From positions 1 to 64,000 of IMG/VR virus record IMGVR_UViG_3300032298_001038: a stretch of 64,000 nucleotides of DNA. One strand, given 5' to 3'. The stretch is from a virus. Below are positions 5,641 to 51,531 of this stretch, piece by piece. The notes beneath the pieces are model-generated. The model worked only from the letters and a program-made list of their open reading frames with translations. It was not told the origin of the DNA and did not search any database. Position 1 is the stretch's first letter; each line of letters begins with the position of its first letter. The position numbers and the translations under genes were made by a program.

Positions 5641-6567
5641 TCAGACAAACGTTACCTTCGCCAAACCATTCGTGTGGCCGAACGAGCCGCCTTGCGTGTT
5701 GTACGCAAAGTACTCAAGCATGAACGCTTCACGACGGATGTACATCGTGGTCGGTTCCAGTTCGTAGTTCTTGCCGATGAACTTCGGCGAGGCGAACATG
5801 TACAGCACATCGTTCGGAACGAGGTTCCGCTTGATCGTCACGATCCAGCGGCAGTTGAGGAAGTTCGTCTCCGCCCAACCGTTCTTGATGATGTCCTGCG
5901 AGAAATCACCGCCCATCTCGTCGCGGCCGAACTTCAGCAGTTCCTTGATGGTGATGTTATTCACCAAGCAAGTCTCCACTTCGAAGTGGCTGGGCGTCGA
6001 GGGCATAACCTTCAGGGCGTCAACGATCGTCTCGCGGGTGATCCCGCCCGAGATCGTGACGTTCTGCGGCACGCCGGACAGCGCGTTGTTGGTGTCGGCA
6101 GTACCGACGGCCACGTCGAGCGCCGTGATGAACTTGGAGTCCTCTTCGGCCAGCATGTCCTTGATCATGTTGTCCGACAGAACCTGACGGATGTCGATGA
6201 CGTACGTGCGCAGTTCGTCAACGTCCTTAACAGCGCGGGGCGACACGATCCGGTCAAACATGACGCGGTAGCGCGGGCCACGGATGTAGAAGTTGATCGG
6301 AAGCGTCGCGAACGGGAGCGACACGGCCGCCGGGGAATCGGGTTCCTTGTCGACAACCTTCACCGGCTTGTCCGTGTCAACCTGACGATCGAGTTCGTCG
6401 TTGGTGATGGTCAGCGGGGGAAGAATACGACGGTAGAACCCGTCTTCACGCATCTTGGTGCGCGTGAAGTCATTAACCGCATCAATGGCCTGCTTCTGCA
6501 TGCCGGGGGTATCAAGTTGCTCAAAAAGCGTCTCGTTGAGCAGTTGAACTTCTTGCTGAGTGGGCAT
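5641..6567 (-). CDS. Major capsid protein (HK97/encapsulin-like fold)
   Basis: About 308 aa, downstream of protease, scaffold and decoration genes; HK97-like pattern (spine-helix region QVLSDNMIKDMLAEEDSKFI, C-terminal beta strands). The start is likely MPTQQ, not MEV. Confidence 0.8.
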   Translation of the reverse strand: MPTQQEVQLLNETLFEQLDTPGMQKQAIDAVNDFTRTKMREDGFYRRILPPLTITNDELDRQVDTDKPVKVVDKEPDSPAAVSLPFATLPINFYIRGPRYRVMFDRIVSPRAVKDVDELRTYVIDIRQVLSDNMIKDMLAEEDSKFITALDVAVGTADTNNALSGVPQNVTISGGITRETIVDALKVMPSTPSHFEVETCLVNNITIKELLKFGRDEMGGDFSQDIIKNGWAETNFLNCRWIVTIKRNLVPNDVLYMFASPKFIGKNYELEPTTMYIRREAFMLEYFAYNTQGGSFGHTNGLAKVTFV

Positions 6568-6571
6568 TGTA

Positions 6572-6587
6572 AAGACCTCCATGTCTT
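6572..6587 (-). promoter_or_regulatory. CsrA/RsmA-type hairpin over the MCP Shine-Dalgarno
   Basis: AAGAC-ATGGAG-GTCTT. Confidence 0.6.
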
Positions 6588-9041: not shown

Positions 9042-10502
9042 TCATGTGACATAATTTTGCAGTACACAGTGGTTTGCTGTCAACAAGTTATTCCGGTATT
9101 TTTCACTGGCGGCAGCGTAAGCAGCAATCTTATACAAAGCGTAGTGCTTCGCAAGAGCAGTTTCTGCGTTTGTGCTGGCCCGCTTTTCTGTCTGAGGTTT
9201 TACAGGTTTAACGTTACGAATTGCGGCTAAATAGGCACGTTTTTCAAGGTTATCGATTAACGTGCTGTGCGTACGTGCAACCTTTTCGGCCCAAAGCCTT
9301 ACGGAGTCTGACGCGCTATCTGCCGGATAAAACTTGTTGTTTTCCAACGAGGAAACGATGTCTTCTTCTGCCGCGAGTTTCGAAAAAACGTTTGGCAGCG
9401 CGTTTGTCACTGCCTCAACGAGTTCAACATTAGCAGATTTGACCGTAAGTGCCAAGAAATCCCTTACAGACAGGATGACTCCGGCGTCGGCTAGTCCGCG
9501 TAATACCTCCGCCATTTTAGCAAATGGACAGGCGTTTATATCAAGCGCAGGCTGTACAGACGGGTGCGCGGCGAGGGCCATCTGAGTCCAACCGTTGGGA
9601 TTGTTAACAGATTCTTGCTCGGCTTGCGCCAGTTGTTGCAGGGCGTTGAATTGCTGCGCGGCGCGCTTCGACGCCATGGCCGAATCCAGACCGTACGGCA
9701 TCGTGACGCCCAGTTGCTCGGCCAGTTCTGCGCCTGAAACCATGGTTCCCGCAGACGCCGCTTTCTCCAACCGGCCCGATACGTAAGCGATACGGTCCGC
9801 CGGGCGGAACACGTGAGAAATGTCGAAAAACGAGCACTTGATGTTGTCGGCGTGGAGGATGTGGCCGTCCTCCAACACCCGGCCCATGTGGTGTTTTAAA
9901 CCGCCGGCTTTGCAGTGCCCGCCGTTCTCAATCGAGTCGCAGTATTCGGCGCGGGTGCGGGCTTTATTGCCGCAAGACGAACAAATATCAAAAGGGATTT
10001 TGCACGCCATGGAAACCGGGATGTCCTTGCCGGAACCCAGTTTTTCCATCTCTTTGTCGGCCAGCAAACCGCCGTTACGGTCGGCGGCCTCCTTCGAGCC
10101 GTTCAGCGCGCAGATCAGTTCGATCCGCTTCATCGGCTCGTTGTAGTACGACGCCTTTACAATGCCGAAACTCTTGGCCGGATTCTTGTTGGCGTGGTCG
10201 CGGTAGAATCGTGCAAACTTTTCAAACGTGTGATGATCTTTTTTGCACGTGTCGCGGCTAAAGCCGTCGCCGTTGCGGTTCGGGCCGTAGTCTTCAGTAG
10301 CACCAATAGCGATCAGGTGCACAGGAACTTCATCTTTTGCGAATTTAATGTGCGATACCTTTTCGACAAACTCGGCTCCGGCGCGCTTTACAAACGCCTG
10401 CTTGTCGTGGCCTATGATGCCGCGATTAGATACTTTAATCAGCGCGGCGACCGGCTCGCTGAAGTCCTGCGAGTTCGGCTGAATAACTTTGATCATGCTC
10501 AT
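9042..10502 (-). CDS. Putative prohead maturation protease with Zn-finger insertion and C-terminal extension
   Basis: FYRDH and VSMAC candidate His/Ser; CKIPFDICSSCG...C...C; canonical position upstream of scaffold and MCP. Confidence 0.65.
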   Translation of the reverse strand: MSMIKVIQPNSQDFSEPVAALIKVSNRGIIGHDKQAFVKRAGAEFVEKVSHIKFAKDEVPVHLIAIGATEDYGPNRNGDGFSRDTCKKDHHTFEKFARFYRDHANKNPAKSFGIVKASYYNEPMKRIELICALNGSKEAADRNGGLLADKEMEKLGSGKDIPVSMACKIPFDICSSCGNKARTRAEYCDSIENGGHCKAGGLKHHMGRVLEDGHILHADNIKCSFFDISHVFRPADRIAYVSGRLEKAASAGTMVSGAELAEQLGVTMPYGLDSAMASKRAAQQFNALQQLAQAEQESVNNPNGWTQMALAAHPSVQPALDINACPFAKMAEVLRGLADAGVILSVRDFLALTVKSANVELVEAVTNALPNVFSKLAAEEDIVSSLENNKFYPADSASDSVRLWAEKVARTHSTLIDNLEKRAYLAAIRNVKPVKPQTEKRASTNAETALAKHYALYKIAAYAAASEKYRNNLLTANHCVLQNYVT

Positions 10503-10510
10503 GTGTAGAC

Positions 10511-12418
10511 CTACAGCAGGTTGAGGTTTCTGTCTTTGATCTCGCCAATGGCTTTGTCGCGGTCGGCGCGGAGTTTATCCATTTCGAGAATCTGCTTTAC
10601 GTCAAAGTCCGCTAACTGCCCGGACTCAAGACGCTTGCGCAACAACGGCCGGATCATGCCCGGGGCGTCGATAAGGCTGGGCGCTAATTCCGCAATTTCG
10701 TTAAACGCCATTGCTACGTCCTGCGGGTCATAGCCGGAAATAACGGAATCATTCAAAACCATATCGTGCAGCACGCTCTTGGCGCGGATAGTCTTCAGCG
10801 CGTTTTCGTGCGTCGGGTCCATGAGTTTTTGGTACTGCTCGCGGACAACCTTCTTGGAGTCTGTATCTTTGATCGGCGACAAGTCGCTCAGATTTTTGGC
10901 GCCCAACAACCCGCCGACGAATTTAATCGGCGTGTCCATCTTGGGCGCAAGGTCTTTTACGGCTTTGCCAAAATCGCCGCTGATGCCCTTTACCTTAGTT
11001 TTGAACTCATCTTGCTTCTTGGCAATCTCTTTTTGCTGGAACTCTTCGTCCATAAGCCGGGCTGCCTCGGCTTGTTCTGCGGTTAAATCTTCTTCACGTA
11101 ATTTGCGCGCATATTGCATGTCGCGTTCTTGCTGCACTCTGTTGTTTTCGTTTTGATTAAACAACGCGTCTTGCAGTTTTTCGTCATCAGCCTGCATCTT
11201 GGCGGCGTCTTCTTCCTGCATCTGGCGGTGTGTCGATTCGTCGCGTTCTTGCTGCACGCGATTGACTTCGCGTTGGTTAAACAAAGCATCTTGCAGTTTT
11301 GCGTTATCGGCCTCTTGCTCCTCGCGCGCAAATGCTTCTGCCGGCGTTTCTGGTACAAGTTTTTTGCCCATGTTTTCGAATCGCGCGCGTTCCCGTTCCG
11401 CCGCGTCGAGTTTATGCGCTTGGCTGCGGACGTAATCGGGGCTGACGTTCGGGATGCCTAACCGGTCTGCAAATTCTTGTTGAAAGTTTTTATCGCCGCC
11501 AATGTAATTTGGCGGCTTTTTTGCCGCTGACTTTAACGTCAAAGGCTCTTCGACTTTTTCGGCAAGGATTGAGCCTGTAAGAAATTCTGGCGCGGTTTTC
11601 TTACCAACCGCTTCGGCTTTTTTTGAGGATGTCTTCGCCTGAGCGGCGTTGTAAGCGCCAACGGAATCAAGCACGTTCTGCACTAGTCCGTATACCGCGT
11701 CGTCGCCGAAGTGCTTTTTGTTTGTGTCCGCTTGCTTCGTGAAGTGCGGATAAACAGCCGCAACCTTTTGCAGCACAGAAACACCCTGCACGCCAAACCG
11801 AAGATTTACTTCGCGCAAAGCGTCGCCAAACGACATGTTGCCCGGCGTGCGGAAGTACACGTTCAGGTCGTCGAGGGCTGTGGCGGCCTTGCTATAAGCA
11901 GCGGTGGCTTGGCGGCGGGTTTCCTCTTCTGCGCGATGAGCGGCCATCTTTTGACTCTGCGAGCGAACAACAGCGGCGTGTTCGTCGCGCGGCGGCGGTG
12001 TCCACGTCTTTTCAGGCAGGGCCACTTTTGCCGCGGCGGACTTTTGCATCTCGTCCTTCCTGCGCGCAAGCATCCCAGCGACAGGTAGCGCGTATTCAGT
12101 CGAGACAACCTCGGCGCGTTTGATGGCGGACGAAGATTTCACTGTTTCAGGGTACAGGGCTTTAAGAACGTCGTTCACGTCAGCCAGCGGGAAGTCAGCG
12201 GCTTTTTCCAGCGTGCTGTCGCTCTTCTCGCGCTGCGTCGTTGTGCGGCCGGTGTTATAGGCGTGCACCATGAGGTTGATGTGGCCCGCTGGAATATCGT
12301 GCTCGCGGGCGCTTTTAATGATTGCGTCTGTCGGTGCAGCCCCGTCATTTACGAGCGCGGCAGCCTTTTCGATAGCGCTGATTAACTTACGCTCGGCGTC
12401 TTTGCTGAGTGAACGCAT
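10511..12418 (-). CDS. Large helical, Cys-free virion protein with K-x-A sites
   Basis: 635 aa, no Cys, at least 7 K-x-A motifs, internal 40-aa duplication. Confidence 0.65.
   Translation of the reverse strand: MRSLSKDAERKLISAIEKAAALVNDGAAPTDAIIKSAREHDIPAGHINLMVHAYNTGRTTTQREKSDSTLEKAADFPLADVNDVLKALYPETVKSSSAIKRAEVVSTEYALPVAGMLARRKDEMQKSAAAKVALPEKTWTPPPRDEHAAVVRSQSQKMAAHRAEEETRRQATAAYSKAATALDDLNVYFRTPGNMSFGDALREVNLRFGVQGVSVLQKVAAVYPHFTKQADTNKKHFGDDAVYGLVQNVLDSVGAYNAAQAKTSSKKAEAVGKKTAPEFLTGSILAEKVEEPLTLKSAAKKPPNYIGGDKNFQQEFADRLGIPNVSPDYVRSQAHKLDAAERERARFENMGKKLVPETPAEAFAREEQEADNAKLQDALFNQREVNRVQQERDESTHRQMQEEDAAKMQADDEKLQDALFNQNENNRVQQERDMQYARKLREEDLTAEQAEAARLMDEEFQQKEIAKKQDEFKTKVKGISGDFGKAVKDLAPKMDTPIKFVGGLLGAKNLSDLSPIKDTDSKKVVREQYQKLMDPTHENALKTIRAKSVLHDMVLNDSVISGYDPQDVAMAFNEIAELAPSLIDAPGMIRPLLRKRLESGQLADFDVKQILEMDKLRADRDKAIGEIKDRNLNLL
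11121..11310 (-). repeat. 120-bp-period in-frame tandem duplication
   Basis: KLQDALFNQxExNRVQQERD at 11121 and 11241. Confidence 0.85.
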
Positions 12419-33602: not shown

Positions 33603-33872
33603 CTATTTCGACCGGAAGCCGAATATGCCTTTAATAAACCGCACAGTGCCGCGCAGCAAAAGATACAGCCACGCGATAAAGCCGCTGATAGCAAAAAAAA
33701 CAATTGCCGGGACGCTCACGAATACCGGCCAGAGTTCCTTTAAGTTTACCTGACGCAGCGTTAACCACACACGCATCCACGGCGTACGATTCGGACTATC
33801 ATCGGGAATTGGCGGGATTACAGGCTGCGGGTCGGTCTTTTTGGGTTTTAACCAGCCGTCAATCCAACTCAT
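33603..33872 (-). CDS. Small membrane protein
   Basis: C-terminal TM helix. Confidence 0.6.
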   Translation of the reverse strand: MSWIDGWLKPKKTDPQPVIPPIPDDSPNRTPWMRVWLTLRQVNLKELWPVFVSVPAIVFFAISGFIAWLYLLLRGTVRFIKGIFGFRSK

Positions 33873-35836
33873 TTCGGCCTCCCAAACACTGTGTTCATGA
33901 AACTATCGCCGTAGCGTCCAATGACTTGGTCGACCATCGGCTCTTCTTCCATTTCATTGTTCATGGCTTTCATGGCCAGTTGATACCGGTAGTTGGGATC
34001 AAGTGTCGCCATGTAGCGCTGCTGGTTGATTTTGGCGTTGCGCATGAAGTCGCCGCGCTGTTTCACCTGCATTAACTGCTCTTGGATGTTTTCGGCCACT
34101 GTTTTGTCGTAGTTGTATGTCAGCGGCCGGTTTAACCCGTAAGAGTTGTATAGCGCGGTGGCATATGCGCTCCGGGGCTGACGATATGCGGCTTTGACAG
34201 ACTCAGGGATCGCGGTTGGCTCGACGTGGAACCGGAACTTCGTCGGCTTGTGCGTAATTCCCTTGTGGTACGGCTTCGGGTCGTCTACGTGCCAGTCTTT
34301 AGGCGCTTTAGCCATGAGCCGCCGCAAGATTTCAGTTTTGTGCGCGTACCTTTTGTTATCTGAATGGTCTTTAGCCGCGCGGAGTTCGTCGAGAATGCGC
34401 GCTTGGGATTCCGCCTGCTTCTTTTGCTCTTCTTGCTCGTCTGGCTGCTGGGGGTTCGGTAACTGCTGCCCTGACGGCGGAAGTGCGGGCGGAGGAACAA
34501 CACCGAAAGCCACGTCGTTTGTTACCGGCGGAGGCATTTCGGGCGGCGCAGTCAGGTCTTCGGCTAGTTCTGGCGGCTTTGGCGGTTTGGGAACTGGCGG
34601 AAGTGCAGGATTGTTGGCTGCTTTTTCAATCGCTTCTACTTTTTTGTAGTAGGACGCGTCTTCTTGCAGATGATCTTTGGCAATTTCTTTGGCGACTTGA
34701 CCATTGTTTGTGTGTTCGTGCTCATGCTGCGCTCCTGCGGCTAATGCTTTCTGAGAAATTTCCCGATCGGGAACATTGTCGGCTTTTCCACCCGGTAACA
34801 GGTCTTTTTGTCCCGAGCGGGAAAGTTTTGTTCCCGTACGGGCAAATTTTGCGGCTTTCTTTAACGCCGGCGCCAATAATGCTTTAATGTCTGGCCCCAT
34901 ATAGTCGGCGCCTTCGGGCAGTCCATGCGAAAGCGTGACCACAGCGTCAGAACCAACACTAGCGTTAAAGTTTCCGGGTTTGAGTTTGTGCTTGGGCAGT
35001 TCCAGATAATGCTCGTGCTGCCATCCTTCGCGCGGATCGTTACCTAAAGCGCGGAAAGCGGTTGGTTTGATTTTCACGCCGAGTTCTTCGAATAACTCAC
35101 GCGCAGCAGCCTGTTCTGGTGTTTCGCCCGTTTCGATACCGCCACCGATAAATCGCCGTTTGCCGATGTTTTCCGGCCACTTCGAGTTATTGAGCGTTTC
35201 CATCAAATACTGGTCTTTGTACGGCACGACGACGCGCACACGGGGCTGCGGGCTTTTAGCGGCGGCGGCTTTGCGCACACTATTGGCCTGCAACACGCTT
35301 TTCCGGCGCACGGCAACAGTAATGTGGAACGGGTGGCCATTTACGAACGGCTGCAACCCGTAACTCTTGCGAATAGCCGACAACATGGGCGACGAGACTT
35401 GCAGCGCCCATAACTTGCTGACGCCGTCGACATTCCGGGGGGTGATCTCTTTCAGGTGGCCGAGGGAGTAGCCAACCATGTGCCCGCGTTCGTTGATATT
35501 CTCCGGGCCGATCTTTTTGACTTCATCGGCAGTCATGACGGAGATATGCGCGTTCAAGACGTCGCTGGCTACGTTGGGCACGTTCATGGTGCCTGCCAGC
35601 GGAAGTTCGGCCCCGGGGGCAGTCATCGCGTCGTAGATGCCCCGGACAAGCGCGTTCGGGACGGAGAGAAGAAGCCAGCCGCTTTTGGCGACATACAGCC
35701 GGCCGGCGAGGGCGTGGCTGGTGGCGGCTTGTTTTTCATTACGCGCAAGCCAGCCGACAGCGTTGCCGATGCTGTATTCGCGTTGGGAGTTCAGCGGCTC
35801 GCGCCATGAACCGTCAAGAATAGAAAAGCCGTCCAT
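33869..35836 (-). CDS. Polyprotein: 2H phosphoesterase + Nudix hydrolase + DUF5661-like + two unknown modules
   Basis: HISV/HITV 2H motifs; complete Nudix box GGIETGETPEQAAARELFEELGV; EHEHT...IAKDHLQE...YYKK; K-x-A at each junction; no Cys. Confidence 0.85.
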   Translation of the reverse strand: MDGFSILDGSWREPLNSQREYSIGNAVGWLARNEKQAATSHALAGRLYVAKSGWLLLSVPNALVRGIYDAMTAPGAELPLAGTMNVPNVASDVLNAHISVMTADEVKKIGPENINERGHMVGYSLGHLKEITPRNVDGVSKLWALQVSSPMLSAIRKSYGLQPFVNGHPFHITVAVRRKSVLQANSVRKAAAAKSPQPRVRVVVPYKDQYLMETLNNSKWPENIGKRRFIGGGIETGETPEQAAARELFEELGVKIKPTAFRALGNDPREGWQHEHYLELPKHKLKPGNFNASVGSDAVVTLSHGLPEGADYMGPDIKALLAPALKKAAKFARTGTKLSRSGQKDLLPGGKADNVPDREISQKALAAGAQHEHEHTNNGQVAKEIAKDHLQEDASYYKKVEAIEKAANNPALPPVPKPPKPPELAEDLTAPPEMPPPVTNDVAFGVVPPPALPPSGQQLPNPQQPDEQEEQKKQAESQARILDELRAAKDHSDNKRYAHKTEILRRLMAKAPKDWHVDDPKPYHKGITHKPTKFRFHVEPTAIPESVKAAYRQPRSAYATALYNSYGLNRPLTYNYDKTVAENIQEQLMQVKQRGDFMRNAKINQQRYMATLDPNYRYQLAMKAMNNEMEEEPMVDQVIGRYGDSFMNTVFGRPK

Positions 35837-47949: not shown

Positions 47950-50319
47950 TTACAGGCCAAATTGCGCCCGCAACCACGCATTTGCAACGGGATTTTGGGC
48001 TGTTTCTTCCGGCTCCGCGTCCAAAATACTTGATATCTTTACGCTCGGACCCTCGGGCGGAGGAGCGCCACCTTCTTCACGGAGAATGCGCCGGAACGCC
48101 TCGTTGATCTCTTCTTTCTCCGCGGTGAGTCGTTCCAGTACTTCGTCGCCGGTGCGCTGGCGTTTGGCGCCGAATAAATACTTCCCGATCAGGCCCGGCT
48201 CAGTCGATTCGGTGAGGTACCGCCGGACAAGCACGTTGCGCAGGTCTTCAGGCAGTCCCGCGTGGCTGTCAAAGCGCAGACCACGGCCGCGGGCTTGTTG
48301 GCTGCGGGCTTCGTTCCAGTGCGGGTCCAGAAGTTGAATTAAACTCGTGCCCTTCGTGCTAATCCCTTCCGCCGCGGCCGGCCCGAGAAGCAGGGCTTTG
48401 CTGCGCCCTTCGTTGTAGTCTTTCAGGGCTTTCTGCCGGTCTTTCAAGGGGATGCCGCCATGAAACACGCCATACGGAATCTTGTCCCGTTCAAGGGCCG
48501 CAGCATAGGGGTTCACGCCCGAATCAATGAAGTTCGAGTAGATGATGGCTTTCTTGCGCGGGTCTGATTTAATCGTCTCTTGAAAGTCCTGATACGCCTT
48601 TTGCATCTTGCTGGACTGCTCGAACGCCTTGATCGGATTCTTGTCTTTGCGGAACGCCTGCGTGGACAAACTCACTTGGCGCAGGCCGTTCAAGAACGAG
48701 TTCATCTTGGCCAGTTCTTCGCGCGACAGTGGGAACTCTTGGTCTAACTTCCACAAGAAGCCGGGCGGAATGCGCGTGCGAATGGCGTTCTGAATCTTCT
48801 GCTGTGCGTCGGACATCGGCACGCGCACGATCTCTTCATTAACGTTCACGCCTTCAGGAGTCTTGCTGGGGTGATAGTCCACTTTGCCCTTGAGCAGTTC
48901 ACGCAGTTCGTCTTCGTTCTTGACGTAGGCTTTCTCGCCCGGCTTTGCGCCCCTGAACCAACCCAACCAGCCCGGGCCGACTTTCTTGTAGCCCACGTAC
49001 TTCTCTTCGAACTGCTCCGGAGAAATCTTCTGGTTGTTCAGCATCGAGAGCAGGCTGGCCAAGTCGGTCGGCGCATTGGTGATCGGCGTGCCCGTGAGCA
49101 AGAGTAAACGCTTGGCTTGGCGCGCGGCCTCTGTAGCCGCGCGGGTGCTGGCGGCGTCGGGATTACGTAACCGGGCAGCCTCGTCCATGATCAGCGTGTC
49201 GGGCGGCTTCTTGAACTGCTTGCCCAAACCCAACCCGGTGTAACTCATGATCTCAGGCTTGGACCCGGTCGTGAACTTGTCGATCTCTTTCTGGAAGTTC
49301 GCGCGCAGACTCGCCGGGACCACGACGCCGTAGTCTTCTTGATATTTTTGTTTGGCGGCTTCGGCAGCAGCAATAGCCGAGAGAGACTTGCCGGACCCTA
49401 GGCCGTGATAGACCAGTAAGCGCGGGTCGTCGCCGGTGAGTTTGTCGGCAATGCGCTGTTGGTGCTCTTGGAGTTGGACTTCTGGTAATAAGTCGGCTTG
49501 CTTTTCCGGTTGTTCGTGTTGAATGTACTTAGCCGGAATTTTCTGCGTAGTGTACTGGTCGGTCATGAGCATATTGAGCGGCCACGGAAACAACGGCTGC
49601 ACAGCAAAGTCATCAGGGAGTTCTACTTTCAAGCGCGCGTCGCCGTACCCAGAGTTCAACTGCGGATGTGTGGCTAGAAACACCCGACGTTCGTAACCCG
49701 GAATGTCGGTCGGGACGCCGGAGTCAGCCCCAGTACCAGCAAATTCCGGGTCAAGACCGCGCTCCAAAATAGACTTGAGGTTTTTGCTGGCGGTGCCGTG
49801 ATAAAACGTTTTTGCAGCCTGCTTCTGCTGCGCCAGATGCCGCTGCGTGGCTTTGGTCTTGTACGCGTCCAGCATCTCGGCAACGCGCTGCTGCTCTTCA
49901 GGCGACACGAGCGTCGTCGGGTCAATTGCCCAGTTGCGCAGCGCCCAGCCGCGTCGGGGTGTGGGGTTCTTGGCAAACGGACCGCCATGGCGGGCTTTGA
50001 AACTCAGCCAGCGCTTGATCTGCCGGGTGTCTTCGTCCGGGATTCTGCGGCCACTGGTGTAACGCTTGTACCACTGCGCCCAGCCCTTGGGATCGTGCTC
50101 GCTGACCCATTCAGGCTTCCACTCGCCAAGACTGGCTAACCGCGGGCCTTGGCCGCGGTACAGCGCGTCGTACACGCCAAGGTTCTCCAGTTGCTCCGGG
50201 GTGTAGTCCGGCGCAAACGCGGCGTCGAGAGCCTGCAACTTCTCCGTGGCTGTCTTCAAGATAGCAGCCGGAAGATAGTCCGCGTCCAAGATAGATTTGC
50301 TGGGCTGCCTACTTGTCAT
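47950..50319 (-). CDS. Polyprotein: unknown domain + ADP-ribosyltransferase-fold domain + SNF2/SF2 helicase
   Basis: DPKGWAQWY.RY..GRR...D..QI.RW; YHGT...SIL..GL...VFLA...IP.KYI; HGLGSGKS, DEAA, TGTP and QARGRGLR; KQA at both junctions; no Cys. Confidence 0.85.
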   Translation of the reverse strand: MTSRQPSKSILDADYLPAAILKTATEKLQALDAAFAPDYTPEQLENLGVYDALYRGQGPRLASLGEWKPEWVSEHDPKGWAQWYKRYTSGRRIPDEDTRQIKRWLSFKARHGGPFAKNPTPRRGWALRNWAIDPTTLVSPEEQQRVAEMLDAYKTKATQRHLAQQKQAAKTFYHGTASKNLKSILERGLDPEFAGTGADSGVPTDIPGYERRVFLATHPQLNSGYGDARLKVELPDDFAVQPLFPWPLNMLMTDQYTTQKIPAKYIQHEQPEKQADLLPEVQLQEHQQRIADKLTGDDPRLLVYHGLGSGKSLSAIAAAEAAKQKYQEDYGVVVPASLRANFQKEIDKFTTGSKPEIMSYTGLGLGKQFKKPPDTLIMDEAARLRNPDAASTRAATEAARQAKRLLLLTGTPITNAPTDLASLLSMLNNQKISPEQFEEKYVGYKKVGPGWLGWFRGAKPGEKAYVKNEDELRELLKGKVDYHPSKTPEGVNVNEEIVRVPMSDAQQKIQNAIRTRIPPGFLWKLDQEFPLSREELAKMNSFLNGLRQVSLSTQAFRKDKNPIKAFEQSSKMQKAYQDFQETIKSDPRKKAIIYSNFIDSGVNPYAAALERDKIPYGVFHGGIPLKDRQKALKDYNEGRSKALLLGPAAAEGISTKGTSLIQLLDPHWNEARSQQARGRGLRFDSHAGLPEDLRNVLVRRYLTESTEPGLIGKYLFGAKRQRTGDEVLERLTAEKEEINEAFRRILREEGGAPPPEGPSVKISSILDAEPEETAQNPVANAWLRAQFGL

Positions 50320-50664: not shown

Positions 50665-51531
50665 TTATTTGGGGTCATCGGGCAGTTTGAACTCGACTAC
50701 TTCGAAGTCCAAGGCTGCTCCCGTTGTCGCCCGTGCGGCCAGCGCCAGTTCGTACTTCTCGATCTGCGATTCTACCCAATTGGCGTATAAACTGACACGG
50801 GTAAATGCACTTTCGTCGCCATACGTGCCGTCGGGTTTCTTATCAACCGCCATGAGAAAAGAGTTAATACCGGCGAGTTCATTGCCGATAAACATCCCGC
50901 CGCCCGAGTCGCCCGGCGAGATCATAAACTCCAGCGGAAACCGCCCAGCACCCGTGGTGGGCTTGCAGACTAATACCCCACGCTCCGTGCCTTCGACAGC
51001 GTTATGCCCAGCCCGTTTCTTGCCGTCAGAGAGCGTGCAGCCGGTGTGAAACGTGCCCGTCAGGCCGTAGCCGGCAATGGTGATCGCCTTGCCCAGTTCG
51101 TCCTGCTTTTTGTACAGCGCCGGGTAAAAGTCCAGTTTAAAATCCTTGGGCGAGTAGCACAGCGCCAGATCGTAAAAGCCGATGTTATCGCCATTAAATT
51201 CCTTGGGTACGATGACGTCGTTGAGCACGTACACGTCGTCGTTGTCTTTGATCACCGCATGAACCGTGGCGCCTTCGACCACGTGGGCGGCGGTGAGCAC
51301 CCAATTGGGCCTAATGATTACGGCCGACCCGTACTGGACGGCCGGCCGTGTCTTGCCCGTGTCTGTGTCAGGAATCTCGCTAATCGCCCGGTAGCGGACG
51401 ACCGACGGAAACTGCTTGCCAAAATCTTGGTACTTGCTGTCGGGCGTGTTCGGGTCGCGGGTTCCGGCGTGTAGCCCGTCAAGTGCCGACAGAAAAAATA
51501 ACAACGTTGTCAGTAGTGCGCGAATAAACAT
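50665..51531 (-). CDS. Secreted trypsin-like (S1) serine protease
   Basis: Signal peptide; TAAH, DLAL and GDSGG catalytic triad. Confidence 0.9.
   Translation of the reverse strand: MFIRALLTTLLFFLSALDGLHAGTRDPNTPDSKYQDFGKQFPSVVRYRAISEIPDTDTGKTRPAVQYGSAVIIRPNWVLTAAHVVEGATVHAVIKDNDDVYVLNDVIVPKEFNGDNIGFYDLALCYSPKDFKLDFYPALYKKQDELGKAITIAGYGLTGTFHTGCTLSDGKKRAGHNAVEGTERGVLVCKPTTGAGRFPLEFMISPGDSGGGMFIGNELAGINSFLMAVDKKPDGTYGDESAFTRVSLYANWVESQIEKYELALAARATTGAALDFEVVEFKLPDDPK

What the first reader, a model, noticed from the sequence alone, without database searches (positions are those of the whole stretch)
33869..35836. Cys-free polyprotein of nucleotide-processing modules: 2H phosphoesterase + Nudix
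Seen: 2H domain (HISV and HITV; about 35273-35725), Nudix domain with a full box (about 34859-35263), a DUF5661-like module (about 34625-34804), a Pro-rich spacer and two unknown modules, each separated by K-x-A. Established: phage 2H enzymes such as T4 Acb1 degrade CBASS cyclic nucleotides, and Nudix enzymes cleave NAD/ADPR-type and capped nucleotides. Inference: injected anti-defence cargo against nucleotide second-messenger immunity. Substrates are unknown.
Basis: partly seen in the sequence, partly recalled or inferred. Interest (0 to 1): 0.8.

Follow-up and report, generated by a model that had tools for sequence, protein, structure and literature searches.

The report
Modular phage 2H–Nudix effector polyprotein
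A 198-kb uncultured freshwater phage encodes a cysteine-free protein built from separate enzyme modules (a 2H phosphoesterase, a Nudix hydrolase and three unknown domains) joined by a short Lys-x-Ala tag that also marks the capsid protein's propeptide, so it is probably cut into pieces in the phage head and delivered with the DNA; neither the cutting, the delivery nor the targets have been shown.

Summary
ORF 33869-35836 (minus strand, 655 aa, no Cys) carries Pfam 2H-SAK, NUDIX and DUF5661 at the stated places, with intact catalytic motifs. It is the one-per-genome, syntenic core gene of a clade of ~200-kb phages.

In relatives, the stretch between the 2H and DUF5661 modules is a swappable cassette. 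It can hold 0-2 Nudix modules, a P-loop kinase, a GNAT, an acylphosphatase-like module or a metallothionein-like Cys-rich mini-module.

K-x-A lies in low-confidence linkers and is near-invariant at three junctions. It bounds every inserted module, and it is the only K-x-A in the capsid protein, at the propeptide border and conserved as far as cultured phage Arash. This supports processing by a head protease but does not prove it.

Virion delivery is an inference. The one analogue is Arash, where particle LC-MS detected an Acb1-family 2H enzyme and a Nudix protein.

The 2H module is not an Acb1-family member, so substrates stay open: immune signalling nucleotides or RNA ends.

New here: module M4 (aa 476-550) is a widespread ~70-aa domain absent from Pfam (689 cluster representatives), and one sub-clade has a catalytically dead 2H module.

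The scan met this family and the K-x-A theme before on other genomes. Verdict: a tidy new variant of the known phage polyvalent proteins.

The parts
33869..35836 (-). Whole ORF: 655 aa plus TGA stop, no Cys. It is the one-per-genome core gene of the clade.
   Evidence: Synteny is conserved in three distant relatives.
35726..35836 (-). N-terminal conserved segment, aa 1-37, ending in K35-Q-A37. Candidate propeptide or targeting segment.
   Evidence: Y21, G24 and L30 are invariant; K35 and A37 are kept in >=90%. K-x-A is present here in 111/114 homologues. pLDDT is below 50 over aa 23-40.
35264..35725 (-). 2H phosphoesterase module, aa 38-191 (Pfam 2H-SAK), with H97-x-S99 and H171-x-T173. It ends in K189-A-A191.
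   Evidence: Pfam E 7e-10 for the module alone. The catalytic tetrad is intact in 129/142 relatives. K189 is invariant. The ESM Atlas structure search gives TM 0.76 to a viral 2H-SAK cluster.
34841..35263 (-). Nudix hydrolase module, aa 192-332, with a complete Nudix box at G232-V254. It ends in the K326-K-A-A-K-F-A332 cluster.
34616..34840 (-). DUF5661 module, aa 333-407 (helical; HEHEHT...AKEIAKDHL...YY), ending in K405-A-A407.
   Evidence: Pfam E 3.4e-9. It is present in every aligned family member (occupancy 1.0) and is a single copy in this genome. It recurs next to a LigT-type 2H domain in the 2,039-aa Rctr197k_173 protein.
34412..34615 (-). Pro-rich low-complexity spacer, aa 408-475.
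   Evidence: pLDDT is below 50 over aa 411-464. Only 16-30% of relatives have it. Its K473-Q-A475 site is not conserved (23/114).
34187..34411 (-). Module M4, aa 476-550: two helices plus a three-stranded sheet (AKDHSDNKRY ... DDPKP ... GITHxPTKFRFH), ending in V-K548-A-A550. A widespread mobile domain that is not in Pfam.
   Evidence: pLDDT is 80-90. Pfam has no hit. The exhaustive profile search finds 689 representatives at E<=1e-3 and 303 at E<=1e-10, in proteins of 72-1684 aa.
33872..34186 (-). Module M5, aa 551-655: helical, function unknown, largely confined to this family.
   Evidence: It is present in every aligned family member (occupancy 1.0). It contains no K-x-A in any of 29 non-redundant sequences. 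It also exists as a stand-alone protein of 99-100 aa.
33603..33872 (-). Downstream 89-aa membrane protein, translationally coupled to the target (ATGA overlap). Conserved neighbour.
   Evidence: A 90-103-aa gene follows the target in all three relatives examined.
5641..6582 (-). Major capsid protein. Its only K-x-A (K30-Q-A32) lies at the putative propeptide border.
   Evidence: K and A are invariant in relatives down to 54% identity, while x varies. It is 28% identical to the Arash capsid protein gp226, whose K27-E-A29 aligns exactly.
50665..51531 (-). S1 (trypsin-fold) serine protease. One of two candidates for the K-x-A processing enzyme.
   Evidence: Pfam Trypsin E 4e-15. The catalytic triad motifs are intact, the only PDB sequence hits are elastases, and there is no Asp at the position equivalent to trypsin residue 189.
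9042..10502 (-). 486-aa ORF in the slot of the head module usually held by the protease (upstream of a scaffold-like ORF and the capsid gene). It has 14 K-x-A against 5.2 expected. This is the other candidate for the processing enzyme.
   Evidence: It matches phrog_2774 over aa 75-245 and has no Pfam or PDB hit. The protease role is inferred from gene order only.

Best explanation
This is a phage-type polyvalent (multi-effector) protein, built as beads on a string.

The modules, in order, are:
- a 37-aa conserved N-terminal segment
- a catalytically intact 2H phosphoesterase of the 2H-SAK family
- a catalytically intact minimal Nudix hydrolase
- DUF5661
- a Pro-rich spacer
- two further modules, M4 and M5

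Each junction is a flexible linker carrying Lys-x-Ala. This is the same motif that bounds the propeptide of the phage's major capsid protein.

The most likely mechanism has three steps, all inferred:
1. The chain is co-assembled into the prohead.
2. A phage protease cuts it after the K-x-A sites into free modules.
3. The modules are carried in the particle and enter the cell with the DNA. There the two enzymes hydrolyse phosphoester or pyrophosphate bonds of nucleotides or RNA ends before any phage gene is expressed.

I put degradation of host nucleotide or ADP-ribose-type immune signals slightly ahead of RNA-end remodelling as the purpose.

What is shown: the domain content, the intact catalytic motifs, the modular cassette behaviour, the conservation and placement of K-x-A, and the family-wide avoidance of Cys.

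What is inferred: cleavage, packaging, injection and substrates.
For: Domains and active sites:
- H97, S99, H171 and T173 are invariant or near-invariant. The tetrad is intact in 129/142 relatives.

Modularity:
- Cutting the variable region at K-x-A gives tight length classes: Nudix type 1 at 133-141 aa, Nudix type 2 at 156-171, P-loop kinase at 187-191, and the Cys-rich mini-module at 34-38.
- Relatives add a kinase, a GNAT or a second Nudix.
- Natural split forms exist: M4+M5 alone, and M5 alone.

K-x-A:
- It is near-invariant at three borders.
- It lies in linkers with pLDDT below 50.
- In 29 non-redundant sequences it appears 16 times in the folded cores against 76 expected, and 148 times in linkers against 64 expected. 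The mirror motif A.x.K gives 69 and 45.
- The capsid protein has a single K-x-A, at its propeptide border, conserved down to 54% identity and in Arash at 28% identity.

Cys avoidance: 0.11% Cys in the family outside the mini-module, against 1.54% genome-wide.

Analogy to known systems:
- In Arash, which shares the capsid protein and encodes a bacterial-type RNAP, particle LC-MS detected the RNAP. It also detected gp143 (14 peptides) and gp138 (9 peptides) (PMC10585845). I identify gp143 as an Acb1-family 2H enzyme and gp138 as a Nudix protein.
- DUF5661 recurs with a 2H domain and InPase domains in the giant polyvalent protein Rctr197k_173.
- Iyer et al. 2017 (PMC5512222) predicted that the 2H domains of phage polyvalent proteins are injected RNases or degraders of signalling nucleotides.
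Against: - There is no direct evidence of cleavage, packaging or injection for this clade.
- The gene does not lie in the head module. It sits in a conserved block with small membrane proteins, an M10 peptidase and volactin.
- K-x-A is not enriched genome-wide (321 observed, 303 expected).
- The putatively packaged RNAP is not depleted of K-x-A (11 observed, 10.4 expected). The motif alone therefore cannot be sufficient for cutting.
- Depletion in the folded cores ranks only 10th lowest of 236 motifs once shared ancestry is controlled for.
- Arash gp143 and gp138 have no K-x-A, contain Cys, and are not orthologues of the target's modules. The Arash authors themselves warn that abundant enzymes may be carry-over.
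- Five relatives keep a well-conserved 2H fold with both catalytic motifs destroyed, so catalysis is not always needed.
- 44/142 relatives hold a Cys-rich module in the same chain.
Confidence: 0.5

Rival explanations
1. RNA-end healing or remodelling kit rather than a degrader of signalling nucleotides. The 2H module would open 2',3'-cyclic phosphate RNA ends, or ADP-ribose 1'',2''-cyclic phosphate. The Nudix module would remove 5' pyrophosphate or NAD caps, or hydrolyse ADP-ribose. The kinase found in relatives would phosphorylate 5'-OH ends. The result would be either repair of tRNAs cut by host anticodon nucleases, or faster decay of host mRNA at the start of infection.
For: - The 2H module belongs to Pfam 2H-SAK, not Acb1.
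- The ESM Atlas structure search links it to fungal proteins that combine RNA_ligase, PTP-SAK, an AAA_33 kinase and 2H-SAK.
- Relatives insert an SKI/AAA_18-type P-loop kinase and a second Nudix with weak similarity to the Nudt16 decapping enzyme.
- NCBIfam's weak hits include RNA pyrophosphohydrolase (RppH) models.
- A weak Tpt1/KptA-like signal (E 9e-4, 16 bits, below the cut-off) lies in the neighbouring Cys-free SNF2 polyprotein.
- Arash particles also contained the RNA ligase RtcB, gp120.
- Iyer et al. 2017 favour an RNase role for these 2H domains as one of two options.
Against: - This genome has no RNA ligase: PF09414 and RtcB are both absent. It also has no macro domain.
- All Nudix hits fall far below every NCBIfam family cut-off and cover only the Nudix box.
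- The kinase matches are generic P-loop matches.
- The Tpt1 signal is below threshold.
Confidence: 0.25
2. Not virion cargo. The protein would be a cytoplasmic multi-domain enzyme made during infection. K-x-A would then be either a linker habit of this clade or a site for a cytoplasmic phage protease (for example the S1 enzyme), which releases the modules inside the infected cell.
For: - The gene lies outside the head module, in an operon with membrane proteins.
- T4 Acb1 is known only as an enzyme active in infected-cell lysates (PMC9117128).
- K-x-A is not enriched genome-wide, and the RNAP is not depleted of it.
- An S1 protease, an unusual type for head maturation, is encoded among the K-x-A-rich genes.
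Against: - The same motif marks the capsid propeptide border from this clade through to Arash. This ties the protease to head maturation.
- The strong Cys avoidance is shared with the RNAP and other large proteins. This fits a life spent outside the cell.
- Arash particles contain analogous enzymes.
Confidence: 0.2
3. The protein is mainly a structural or ejection component. The 2H fold, M4 and M5 would serve as an internal-head or ejection-channel protein working with the adjacent membrane proteins, and the enzyme activity would be secondary or dispensable.
For: - A sub-clade keeps the 2H fold at 55% identity with both catalytic motifs mutated (NAHL instead of HSHT). Its K-x-A borders are intact.
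- The constant parts of the family are 2H, DUF5661, M4 and M5, while the other enzymes come and go.
- The gene is translationally coupled to a conserved membrane protein.
Against: - 91% of members keep the catalytic tetrad.
- 59/60 Nudix modules keep a complete Nudix box. This indicates selection on catalysis.
Confidence: 0.1

Closest known systems
Phage-type polyvalent proteins (Iyer, Burroughs, Anand, de Souza, Aravind 2017, PMC5512222)
   Same: Several unrelated effector domains sit in one polypeptide. The 2H domain is listed there as specific to the phage type, and Nudix and GNAT are described as fused or neighbouring partners of the InPase domain. Those proteins are predicted to be packaged in the head, injected and processed into separate units. 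DUF5661 also occurs in a classic example that I examined: Rctr197k_173, with two InPase domains, DUF7178, DUF5661 and a LigT-type 2H domain.
   Different: This protein is small (655 aa). It has no MPTase (zincin) autoprocessing domain. The junctions instead carry a K-x-A motif shared with the capsid propeptide. The protein is a syntenic core gene of one clade, with a defined cassette slot for swappable modules.
T4 Acb1 (gene 57B), the anti-CBASS 2H phosphoesterase (Hobbs et al. 2022, PMC9117128; Pfam PF23474)
   Same: It is a phage-encoded member of the 2H superfamily, with two H-x-T/S motifs and a similar domain size of about 150 aa.
   Different: It belongs to a different sequence family. 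The target hits 2H-SAK at 7e-10 and has no Acb1 hit at E<=1. BLASTP gives E 2.3 and hhalign a probability below 1%. Acb1 is a stand-alone protein. Cleavage of 3'3'-cGAMP or cA3 has not been tested for the target.
Head-protease-processed internal and injected proteins of T4 (IPs and Alt; gp21 cuts at L/I-x-E) and phiKZ (gp175 cuts at S/A/G-x-E)
   Same: The concept is the same: a short tripeptide site shared by the capsid propeptide and by cargo proteins, cut inside the prohead, with the products ejected together with the DNA. The details of T4 and phiKZ are from my own knowledge and were not checked here.
   Different: The motif here is K-x-A and not Glu-based. The cargo is a multi-enzyme chain. 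The protease has not been identified: the candidates are the 486-aa ORF at 9042-10502 and the elastase-like S1 protease at 50665-51531.
Salmonella phage Arash gp143 (Acb1-family 2H) and gp138 (Nudix), both detected in particles by LC-MS (PMC10585845)
   Same: Arash shares a capsid protein (28% identity, with an aligned K-x-A site) and encodes a bacterial-type RNAP. A 2H enzyme and a Nudix enzyme, encoded about 3.5 kb apart, are both found in the particle preparation.
   Different: In Arash these are separate small proteins. They have no K-x-A, they contain Cys, and they are not orthologous to the target's modules. Carry-over in the preparation is possible.
Eukaryotic 'Swiss Army Knife' RNA-repair proteins (RNA ligase + PTP-SAK + AAA_33 kinase + 2H-SAK)
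   Same: They share the same Pfam 2H family, and the ESM Atlas structure search gives TM 0.57-0.60 by query. Some relatives of the target have a kinase partner.
   Different: The phage has no ligase or PTP domain. The nearest relatives of the target's 2H module are stand-alone viral 2H proteins of 150-210 aa.

Membership tests
2H phosphoesterase superfamily / Pfam 2H-SAK (PF22547) | Two H-x-T/S motifs about 70-80 residues apart | tested here: met
   H97-I-S99 and H171-I-T173 are 74 residues apart. The tetrad is HSHT or HTHT in 129/142 family members.
2H phosphoesterase superfamily / Pfam 2H-SAK (PF22547) | Profile score above the curated cut-off | tested here: met
   The module alone scores 39.6 bits against a cut-off of 27.
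2H phosphoesterase superfamily / Pfam 2H-SAK (PF22547) | Two-lobed alpha+beta 2H fold | tested here: inconclusive
   The ESM Atlas structure search gives TM 0.76 to a 2H-SAK cluster and 0.49-0.65 to LigT-type clusters. My own model has pLDDT 50-88 in this domain.
Acb1 anti-CBASS nucleases (PF23474) | Sequence membership in the Acb1 profile | tested here: not met
   There is no hit at E<=1. The positive controls do hit: T4 57B scores 2.7e-60 and Arash gp143 scores 1.3e-15. hhalign probability is below 1%.
Acb1 anti-CBASS nucleases (PF23474) | Hydrolysis of 3'3'-cGAMP, cUA or cAAA | not testable with these tools
   This needs a biochemical assay.
Nudix hydrolases (PF00293) | Nudix box G-x5-E-x7-R-E-U-x-E-E-x-G-U | tested here: met
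   G232...E238...R246-E-L-F-E-E-L-G-V254, read. The box is complete in 59/60 family Nudix modules.
Nudix hydrolases (PF00293) | Nudix alpha/beta/alpha fold | tested here: met
Nudix hydrolases (PF00293) | Assignable substrate subfamily (MutT, RppH, ADPRase, NudC) | tested here: inconclusive
   Every NCBIfam hit scores 16-28 bits against cut-offs of 95-259 bits, and the hits cover only the Nudix box.
Phage polyvalent proteins (Iyer et al. 2017) | Two or more unrelated effector domains in one polypeptide of a phage | tested here: met
   The target carries 2H, Nudix, DUF5661, M4 and M5. Relatives add a kinase, a GNAT and an acylphosphatase-like module.
Phage polyvalent proteins (Iyer et al. 2017) | Packaged in the virion and delivered to the host | not testable with these tools
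   Only indirect support is available: the K-x-A motif shared with the capsid protein, Cys avoidance and the Arash analogue.
Phage polyvalent proteins (Iyer et al. 2017) | Own processing peptidase (MPTase/zincin) domain | tested here: not met
   The protein has no peptidase family hit and no HExxH motif. This is a frequent feature of the class, not an obligatory one.
Head-protease-processed virion cargo | Junction motif shared with the capsid propeptide site and conserved across relatives | tested here: met
Head-protease-processed virion cargo | Demonstrated cleavage products | not testable with these tools
   This needs proteomics with semi-specific searches, or a co-expression experiment.

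The most novel reading that the evidence does not exclude
The clade uses a plug-and-play effector cassette. Any small enzyme or peptide flanked by K-x-A can be dropped into one slot of a conserved carrier chain. The head protease releases it, and it is delivered ready-made with the DNA. In this reading M4, an undescribed ~70-aa domain present in at least 689 protein clusters and in proteins of up to 1,684 aa, is the general adaptor that recruits such chains into capsids across many uncultured phage lineages.
Probability: 0.3. Interest if true: 0.8.

Novelty: new variant of a known kind. Interest (0 to 1): 0.55.

Why it matters
If the K-x-A sites are real cut sites, this family is a compact natural system for loading several ready-made enzymes into a phage particle. 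Its module borders can be read directly from the sequence, which would help annotate the very large 'dark' proteomes of uncultured jumbo phages.

It would also show that phosphoesterases able to act on immune nucleotides or RNA ends can be delivered at time zero, rather than expressed after entry. That changes how defences based on signalling molecules or tRNA cleavage should be expected to fare against such phages.

The idea can be tested cheaply, because a cultured distant relative (Arash) has the same capsid site and already has published particle LC-MS data.

The M4 domain is a sizeable family that still lacks a Pfam model.

Tried and rejected
**Fold searches**
- The single-sequence fold was useless (pLDDT 40) and cost one of my two fold jobs. 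As a result I could not fold the 2H, M4 or M5 modules on their own.
- Whole-chain fold searches (Foldseek against PDB and against viral models, and VIA wide) returned only Nudix rows. The requested structural comparison with Acb1 was therefore not done.

**Sequence searches that found nothing useful**
- A profile of Nudix-less homologues against PDB sequences gave only chance P-II hits at E about 1.
- PHROGs gave no hit for the 2H module.
- Nucleotide (blastn) and protein (tblastn) searches of the whole protein against cultured-phage genomes found nothing. Only the DUF5661 module matched.
- The ESM Atlas had no usable hit for aa 476-655.
- HMMs of each module found no second copy in this genome, so there is no shared targeting peptide.
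- NCBIfam gave no Nudix or kinase subfamily.
- RNA ligase (PF09414), RtcB and Macro are absent from the genome. The T4 gp21-type protease search (PF03420) was uninformative because its controls did not respond.
- My last word-indexed homologue search, on M4 alone, returned only the family itself. Source names for the giant M4-bearing proteins were almost all missing.

**K-x-A statistics that did not support the idea**
- Genome-wide enrichment of K-x-A: none.
- Depletion of K-x-A in large proteins of this genome: counts were too low to decide, and the RNAP is not depleted.
- My first test of depletion in the folded cores overstated its significance. With all 236 a.x.b motifs as a control, K.x.A ranks 10th lowest.

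**Other**
- Arash gp143 and gp138 carry no K-x-A and are not orthologues of the target's modules.
- The RNA-repair paper that introduced the 'Swiss Army Knife' proteins (PMC5062991) is not held. What I say about the origin of that name is from memory.
- Complex prediction, read mapping and the metagenome scans were not used.
Full report
**1. The observation**

The window is the left third of a complete 198,312-bp virus record with direct terminal repeats. Almost all genes run on the minus strand.

ORF 33869-35836 (minus) encodes 655 aa without a single Cys. The genome averages 1.54% Cys, so the chance of this is about 4e-5.

Pfam places three domains:
- 2H-SAK at aa 95-179
- NUDIX at aa 217-288
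- DUF5661 at aa 359-405

PHROGs sees only the Nudix part.

The two 2H motifs are H97-I-S99 and H171-I-T173. The Nudix box G232-V254 is complete.

**2. The family**

The protein has hundreds of homologues from metagenomes, many of them on contigs of 192-209 kb. In three distant relatives the gene order is the same:
- volactin, then a ~150-aa gene, then a non-coding gap
- a small membrane protein and a micro-ORF
- this gene
- a 90-103-aa membrane protein and a 336-354-aa protein
- two small genes, an M10 peptidase with a PG-binding domain, and finally the RNAP

In the window, the gene's TGA stop overlaps the ATG of the downstream membrane protein. No promoter-like or terminator-like site interrupts the strand.

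It is therefore a core, single-copy gene of a phage clade and not a stray accessory gene. No module has a second copy in this genome.

**3. Anatomy**

Alignment of 120 homologues separates constant parts from variable parts.

Constant parts:
- aa 1-37
- the 2H module, aa 38-191
- DUF5661, about aa 346-407
- M4, aa 476-550
- M5, aa 551-655

Variable parts:
- Nudix, present in about half of relatives
- the Pro-rich spacer, present in 16-30%

An AlphaFold model built on 66 sequences (mean pLDDT 70) folds each module with confidence. It leaves aa 1-9, 23-40, 180-194, 331-353 and 411-464 below pLDDT 50.

In relatives, the slot between the 2H and DUF5661 modules can hold:
- one or two Nudix modules, the second type weakly similar to Nudt16
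- an SKI/AAA_18 P-loop kinase
- a GNAT
- an acylphosphatase-like module
- a ~35-aa mini-module, TTYDCxCSGPCxCPxxCxCK

**4. K-x-A**

In the target the motif occurs at aa 35, 189, 326-330, 405, 473 and 548.

Conservation across the family:

| Junction | Sequences with K-x-A |
|---|---|
| N-terminal (KQA) | 111/114 |
| After 2H (GELKAA) | 114/119 |
| M4 / M5 (VKAA) | 114/120 |
| End of Nudix | 69/119 |
| End of DUF5661 | 71/119 |
| Spacer / M4 | 23/114 |

K189 is invariant. K35, A37 and K548 are kept in at least 90% of sequences.

Cutting the variable region after each K-x-A yields very tight length classes:

| Segment | Length (aa) |
|---|---|
| 2H tail | 16 / 27 / 35 / 40 |
| Cys-rich module | 34-38 |
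| Nudix type 1 | 133-141 |
| Nudix type 2 | 156-171 |
| P-loop kinase | 187-191 |

So each inserted module brings its own K-x-A, and the motif almost never falls inside a module.

In 29 sequences below 70% identity, the counts are:

| Region | K.x.A observed | K.x.A expected | A.x.K observed |
|---|---|---|---|
| Folded cores | 16 | 76 | 69 |
| Linkers | 148 | 64 | 45 |

A caution applies. When all a.x.b motifs are used as the control for shared ancestry, core depletion of K.x.A ranks 10th lowest of 236, and linker enrichment ranks 3rd highest of 108. The signal is good but not unique.

Across the genome the motif is not enriched (321 observed, 303 expected). The RNAP carries as many K-x-A as expected. 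The tripeptide can therefore act only where it is exposed.

**5. Link to head maturation**

The 313-aa ORF at 5641-6582 is the major capsid protein. It matches the annotated capsid protein gp226 of Salmonella phage Arash (28% identity over 96% of the length, E 9e-24).

It has exactly one K-x-A: GMQ-K30-Q-A32 followed by IDAVNDF. In 60-odd relatives down to 54% identity, K and A are invariant while x varies among Q, R, T, E and D. The rest of the protein stays essentially free of the motif. Arash has K27-E-A29 at the aligned position.

This is what a propeptide cleavage site looks like, and it ties the motif to head assembly.

Two candidate enzymes exist:
- A 486-aa ORF (9042-10502) lies where a head protease usually lies: after a 635-aa ORF and before a scaffold-like ORF and the capsid gene. 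It has 14 K-x-A but no recognisable family.
- A true S1 serine protease (50665-51531) lies among other K-x-A-rich genes. It has an intact catalytic triad, its only PDB sequence hits are elastases, and it has no Asp at the position of trypsin's residue 189. That would suit cutting after the Ala and not after the Lys.

Which of the two acts on K-x-A, if either, is not known.

**6. Cys avoidance**

The target shares its Cys-free state with the two RNAP chains, the SNF2 polyprotein (47950-50319) and the large ORFs at 10511, 53199 and 182339.

Across 142 family members, Cys makes up 0.11% of residues outside the mini-module. This is a selected property of the enzyme modules.

It fits proteins that spend long periods outside a cell. 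However, the Cys-rich mini-module carried by 44 relatives shows that Cys is not forbidden in the chain.

**7. What the enzymes are**

The 2H module is not an Acb1:
- Pfam has a dedicated Acb1 family. T4 57B hits it at 2.7e-60, while the module hits only 2H-SAK.
- BLASTP against T4 Acb1 gives E 2.3.
- hhalign of the family's 2H profile against T4 Acb1 and Arash gp143 gives probabilities below 1%.

Its nearest relatives are stand-alone viral 2H-SAK proteins of 150-210 aa. More remote structural neighbours are fungal proteins that join an RNA ligase, a PTP domain and a kinase to 2H-SAK, and bacterial LigT-type enzymes.

The Nudix module is a minimal MutT/RppH-sized Nudix with no assignable subfamily.

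The tetrad H-S/T-H-T is intact in 129/142 members. Five relatives (the P0139 group) keep the fold at 55% identity but read N-A-H-L.

The genome lacks an RNA ligase, RtcB and a macro domain. A weak, sub-threshold Tpt1-like signal lies in the SNF2 polyprotein.

The substrate question is open. The literature on polyvalent proteins offers the same two options for such 2H domains: RNase or RNA-end enzyme, or degrader of signalling nucleotides (PMC5512222; PMC7824862).

**8. An experimental analogue**

Arash is the only cultured relative I could find by its capsid protein, apart from three Vibrio phages with no such data.

Its particle LC-MS listed 116 proteins, headed by RNAP beta. [quoted passage not shown]

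Pfam shows what these are:
- gp143 (150 aa) is an Acb1-family 2H phosphoesterase (1.3e-15), not a ligase.
- gp138 (157 aa) is a Nudix hydrolase.
- gp120 is RtcB.

gp138 and gp143 lie about 3.5 kb apart, among other particle-detected genes. So in this broad lineage a 2H enzyme and a Nudix enzyme have been seen together in particle preparations.

Three limits apply. They are not orthologues of the target's modules and carry no K-x-A. The preparation may contain carry-over, as the authors note. And 116 of 272 proteins is a large share.

**9. The unknown modules**

DUF5661 also sits beside a LigT-type 2H domain in Rctr197k_173. That 2,039-aa protein has two InPase domains and DUF7178, and is a textbook polyvalent protein.

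An exhaustive profile search with the C-terminal 180 aa found 689 cluster representatives at E<=1e-3 and 303 at E<=1e-10. Most match only M4.

M4 is thus a mobile ~70-aa domain with no Pfam model. Its properties:
- It occurs in proteins of 72 to 1,684 aa, at any position.
- Those proteins are Cys-poor (0.38%).
- K-x-A lies within 25 aa on either side in about 65% of cases.
- It often occurs together with 2H-SAK, Nudix or DUF5661.
- One cluster is named at source as an SNF2 helicase.

M5 stays within the family. It also exists alone (99-100 aa) and as M4+M5 (187-192 aa). These are natural split forms that support module independence.

**10. Verdict**

The sequence facts are confirmed. The protein is best filed as a phage polyvalent protein in an unusually tidy form: a carrier chain with a cassette slot, and junctions marked by the capsid-propeptide motif.

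Processing by a head protease is probable (about 0.6). Virion delivery is plausible (about 0.5). The purpose is unresolved: I put roughly 0.3 on anti-signalling and 0.25 on RNA ends, with the rest on other or mixed roles.

The scan has already reported this family and the K-x-A theme on other genomes. The finding is therefore not new to the scan.
- the Arash link
- the explicit failure of the Acb1 membership test
- the module catalogue
- the dead-2H sub-clade
- the M4 domain

Noticed in passing
window 34187-34411 (aa 476-550 of the target): Module M4 is a widespread mobile domain of about 70 aa with no Pfam model. It has 689 cluster representatives at E<=1e-3, in proteins of 72-1684 aa. It is often found with 2H-SAK, Nudix, DUF5661 or an SNF2 helicase, and K-x-A commonly flanks it.
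   Followed up: partly
relatives P0006, P0019, P0037, P0049, P0081, P0099, P0120 (inserted after the 2H module): A metallothionein-like mini-module of about 35 aa (TTYDCxCSGPCxCPxxCxCK, 7-9 Cys) is bracketed by K-x-A. It is present in 44 of 142 family members whose other modules avoid Cys.
   Followed up: partly
relatives P0132, P0135, P0137, P0138, P0139; locus L005:8001-10292: A sub-clade keeps the 2H fold at 55% identity, but both catalytic motifs are destroyed (NAHISV became NANIAV, and FHITV became FHILV). The K-x-A borders are kept.
   Followed up: partly
L077:4966-5418 (Arash gp143) and L077:959-1432 (Arash gp138): Arash gp143 is annotated and published as an 'RNA ligase'. It is in fact an Acb1-family 2H phosphoesterase (PF23474, 1.3e-15). 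Both it and the Nudix protein gp138 were detected in the published particle proteome.
   Followed up: yes
window 50665-51531: An S1 (trypsin-fold) serine protease with an intact catalytic triad. Its only PDB sequence hits are elastases, and it has no Asp189 equivalent. It is encoded among K-x-A-rich, Cys-free genes next to PhoH. This is an unusual protease type for a phage structural region.
   Followed up: partly
window 49747-49851, inside ORF 47950-50319: A weak Tpt1/KptA-like match (RNA 2'-phosphotransferase; E 9e-4, 16 bits, below the cut-off) lies in the Cys-free SNF2-helicase polyprotein. If real, it would link to 2H chemistry through ADP-ribose cyclic phosphate.
   Followed up: no
L079:1556-7675 (Virus Rctr197k gene 173): This 2,039-aa hypothetical protein is a polyvalent protein with two InPase domains, DUF7178, DUF5661 and a LigT-type 2H domain.
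   Followed up: partly
genome G000:C1:154051-155256 (+), outside the window: My crude gene caller lists a 401-aa plus-strand ORF here with 16 K-x-A against 3.5 expected. This is the highest ratio in the genome. I did not examine it, and it may be a wrong-strand call.
   Followed up: no
window 10511-12418: A Cys-free 635-aa ORF lies just upstream of the protease-like ORF. All 14 of its K-x-A sites fall in the first 300 aa. It could be a portal or a further processed head protein.
   Followed up: no
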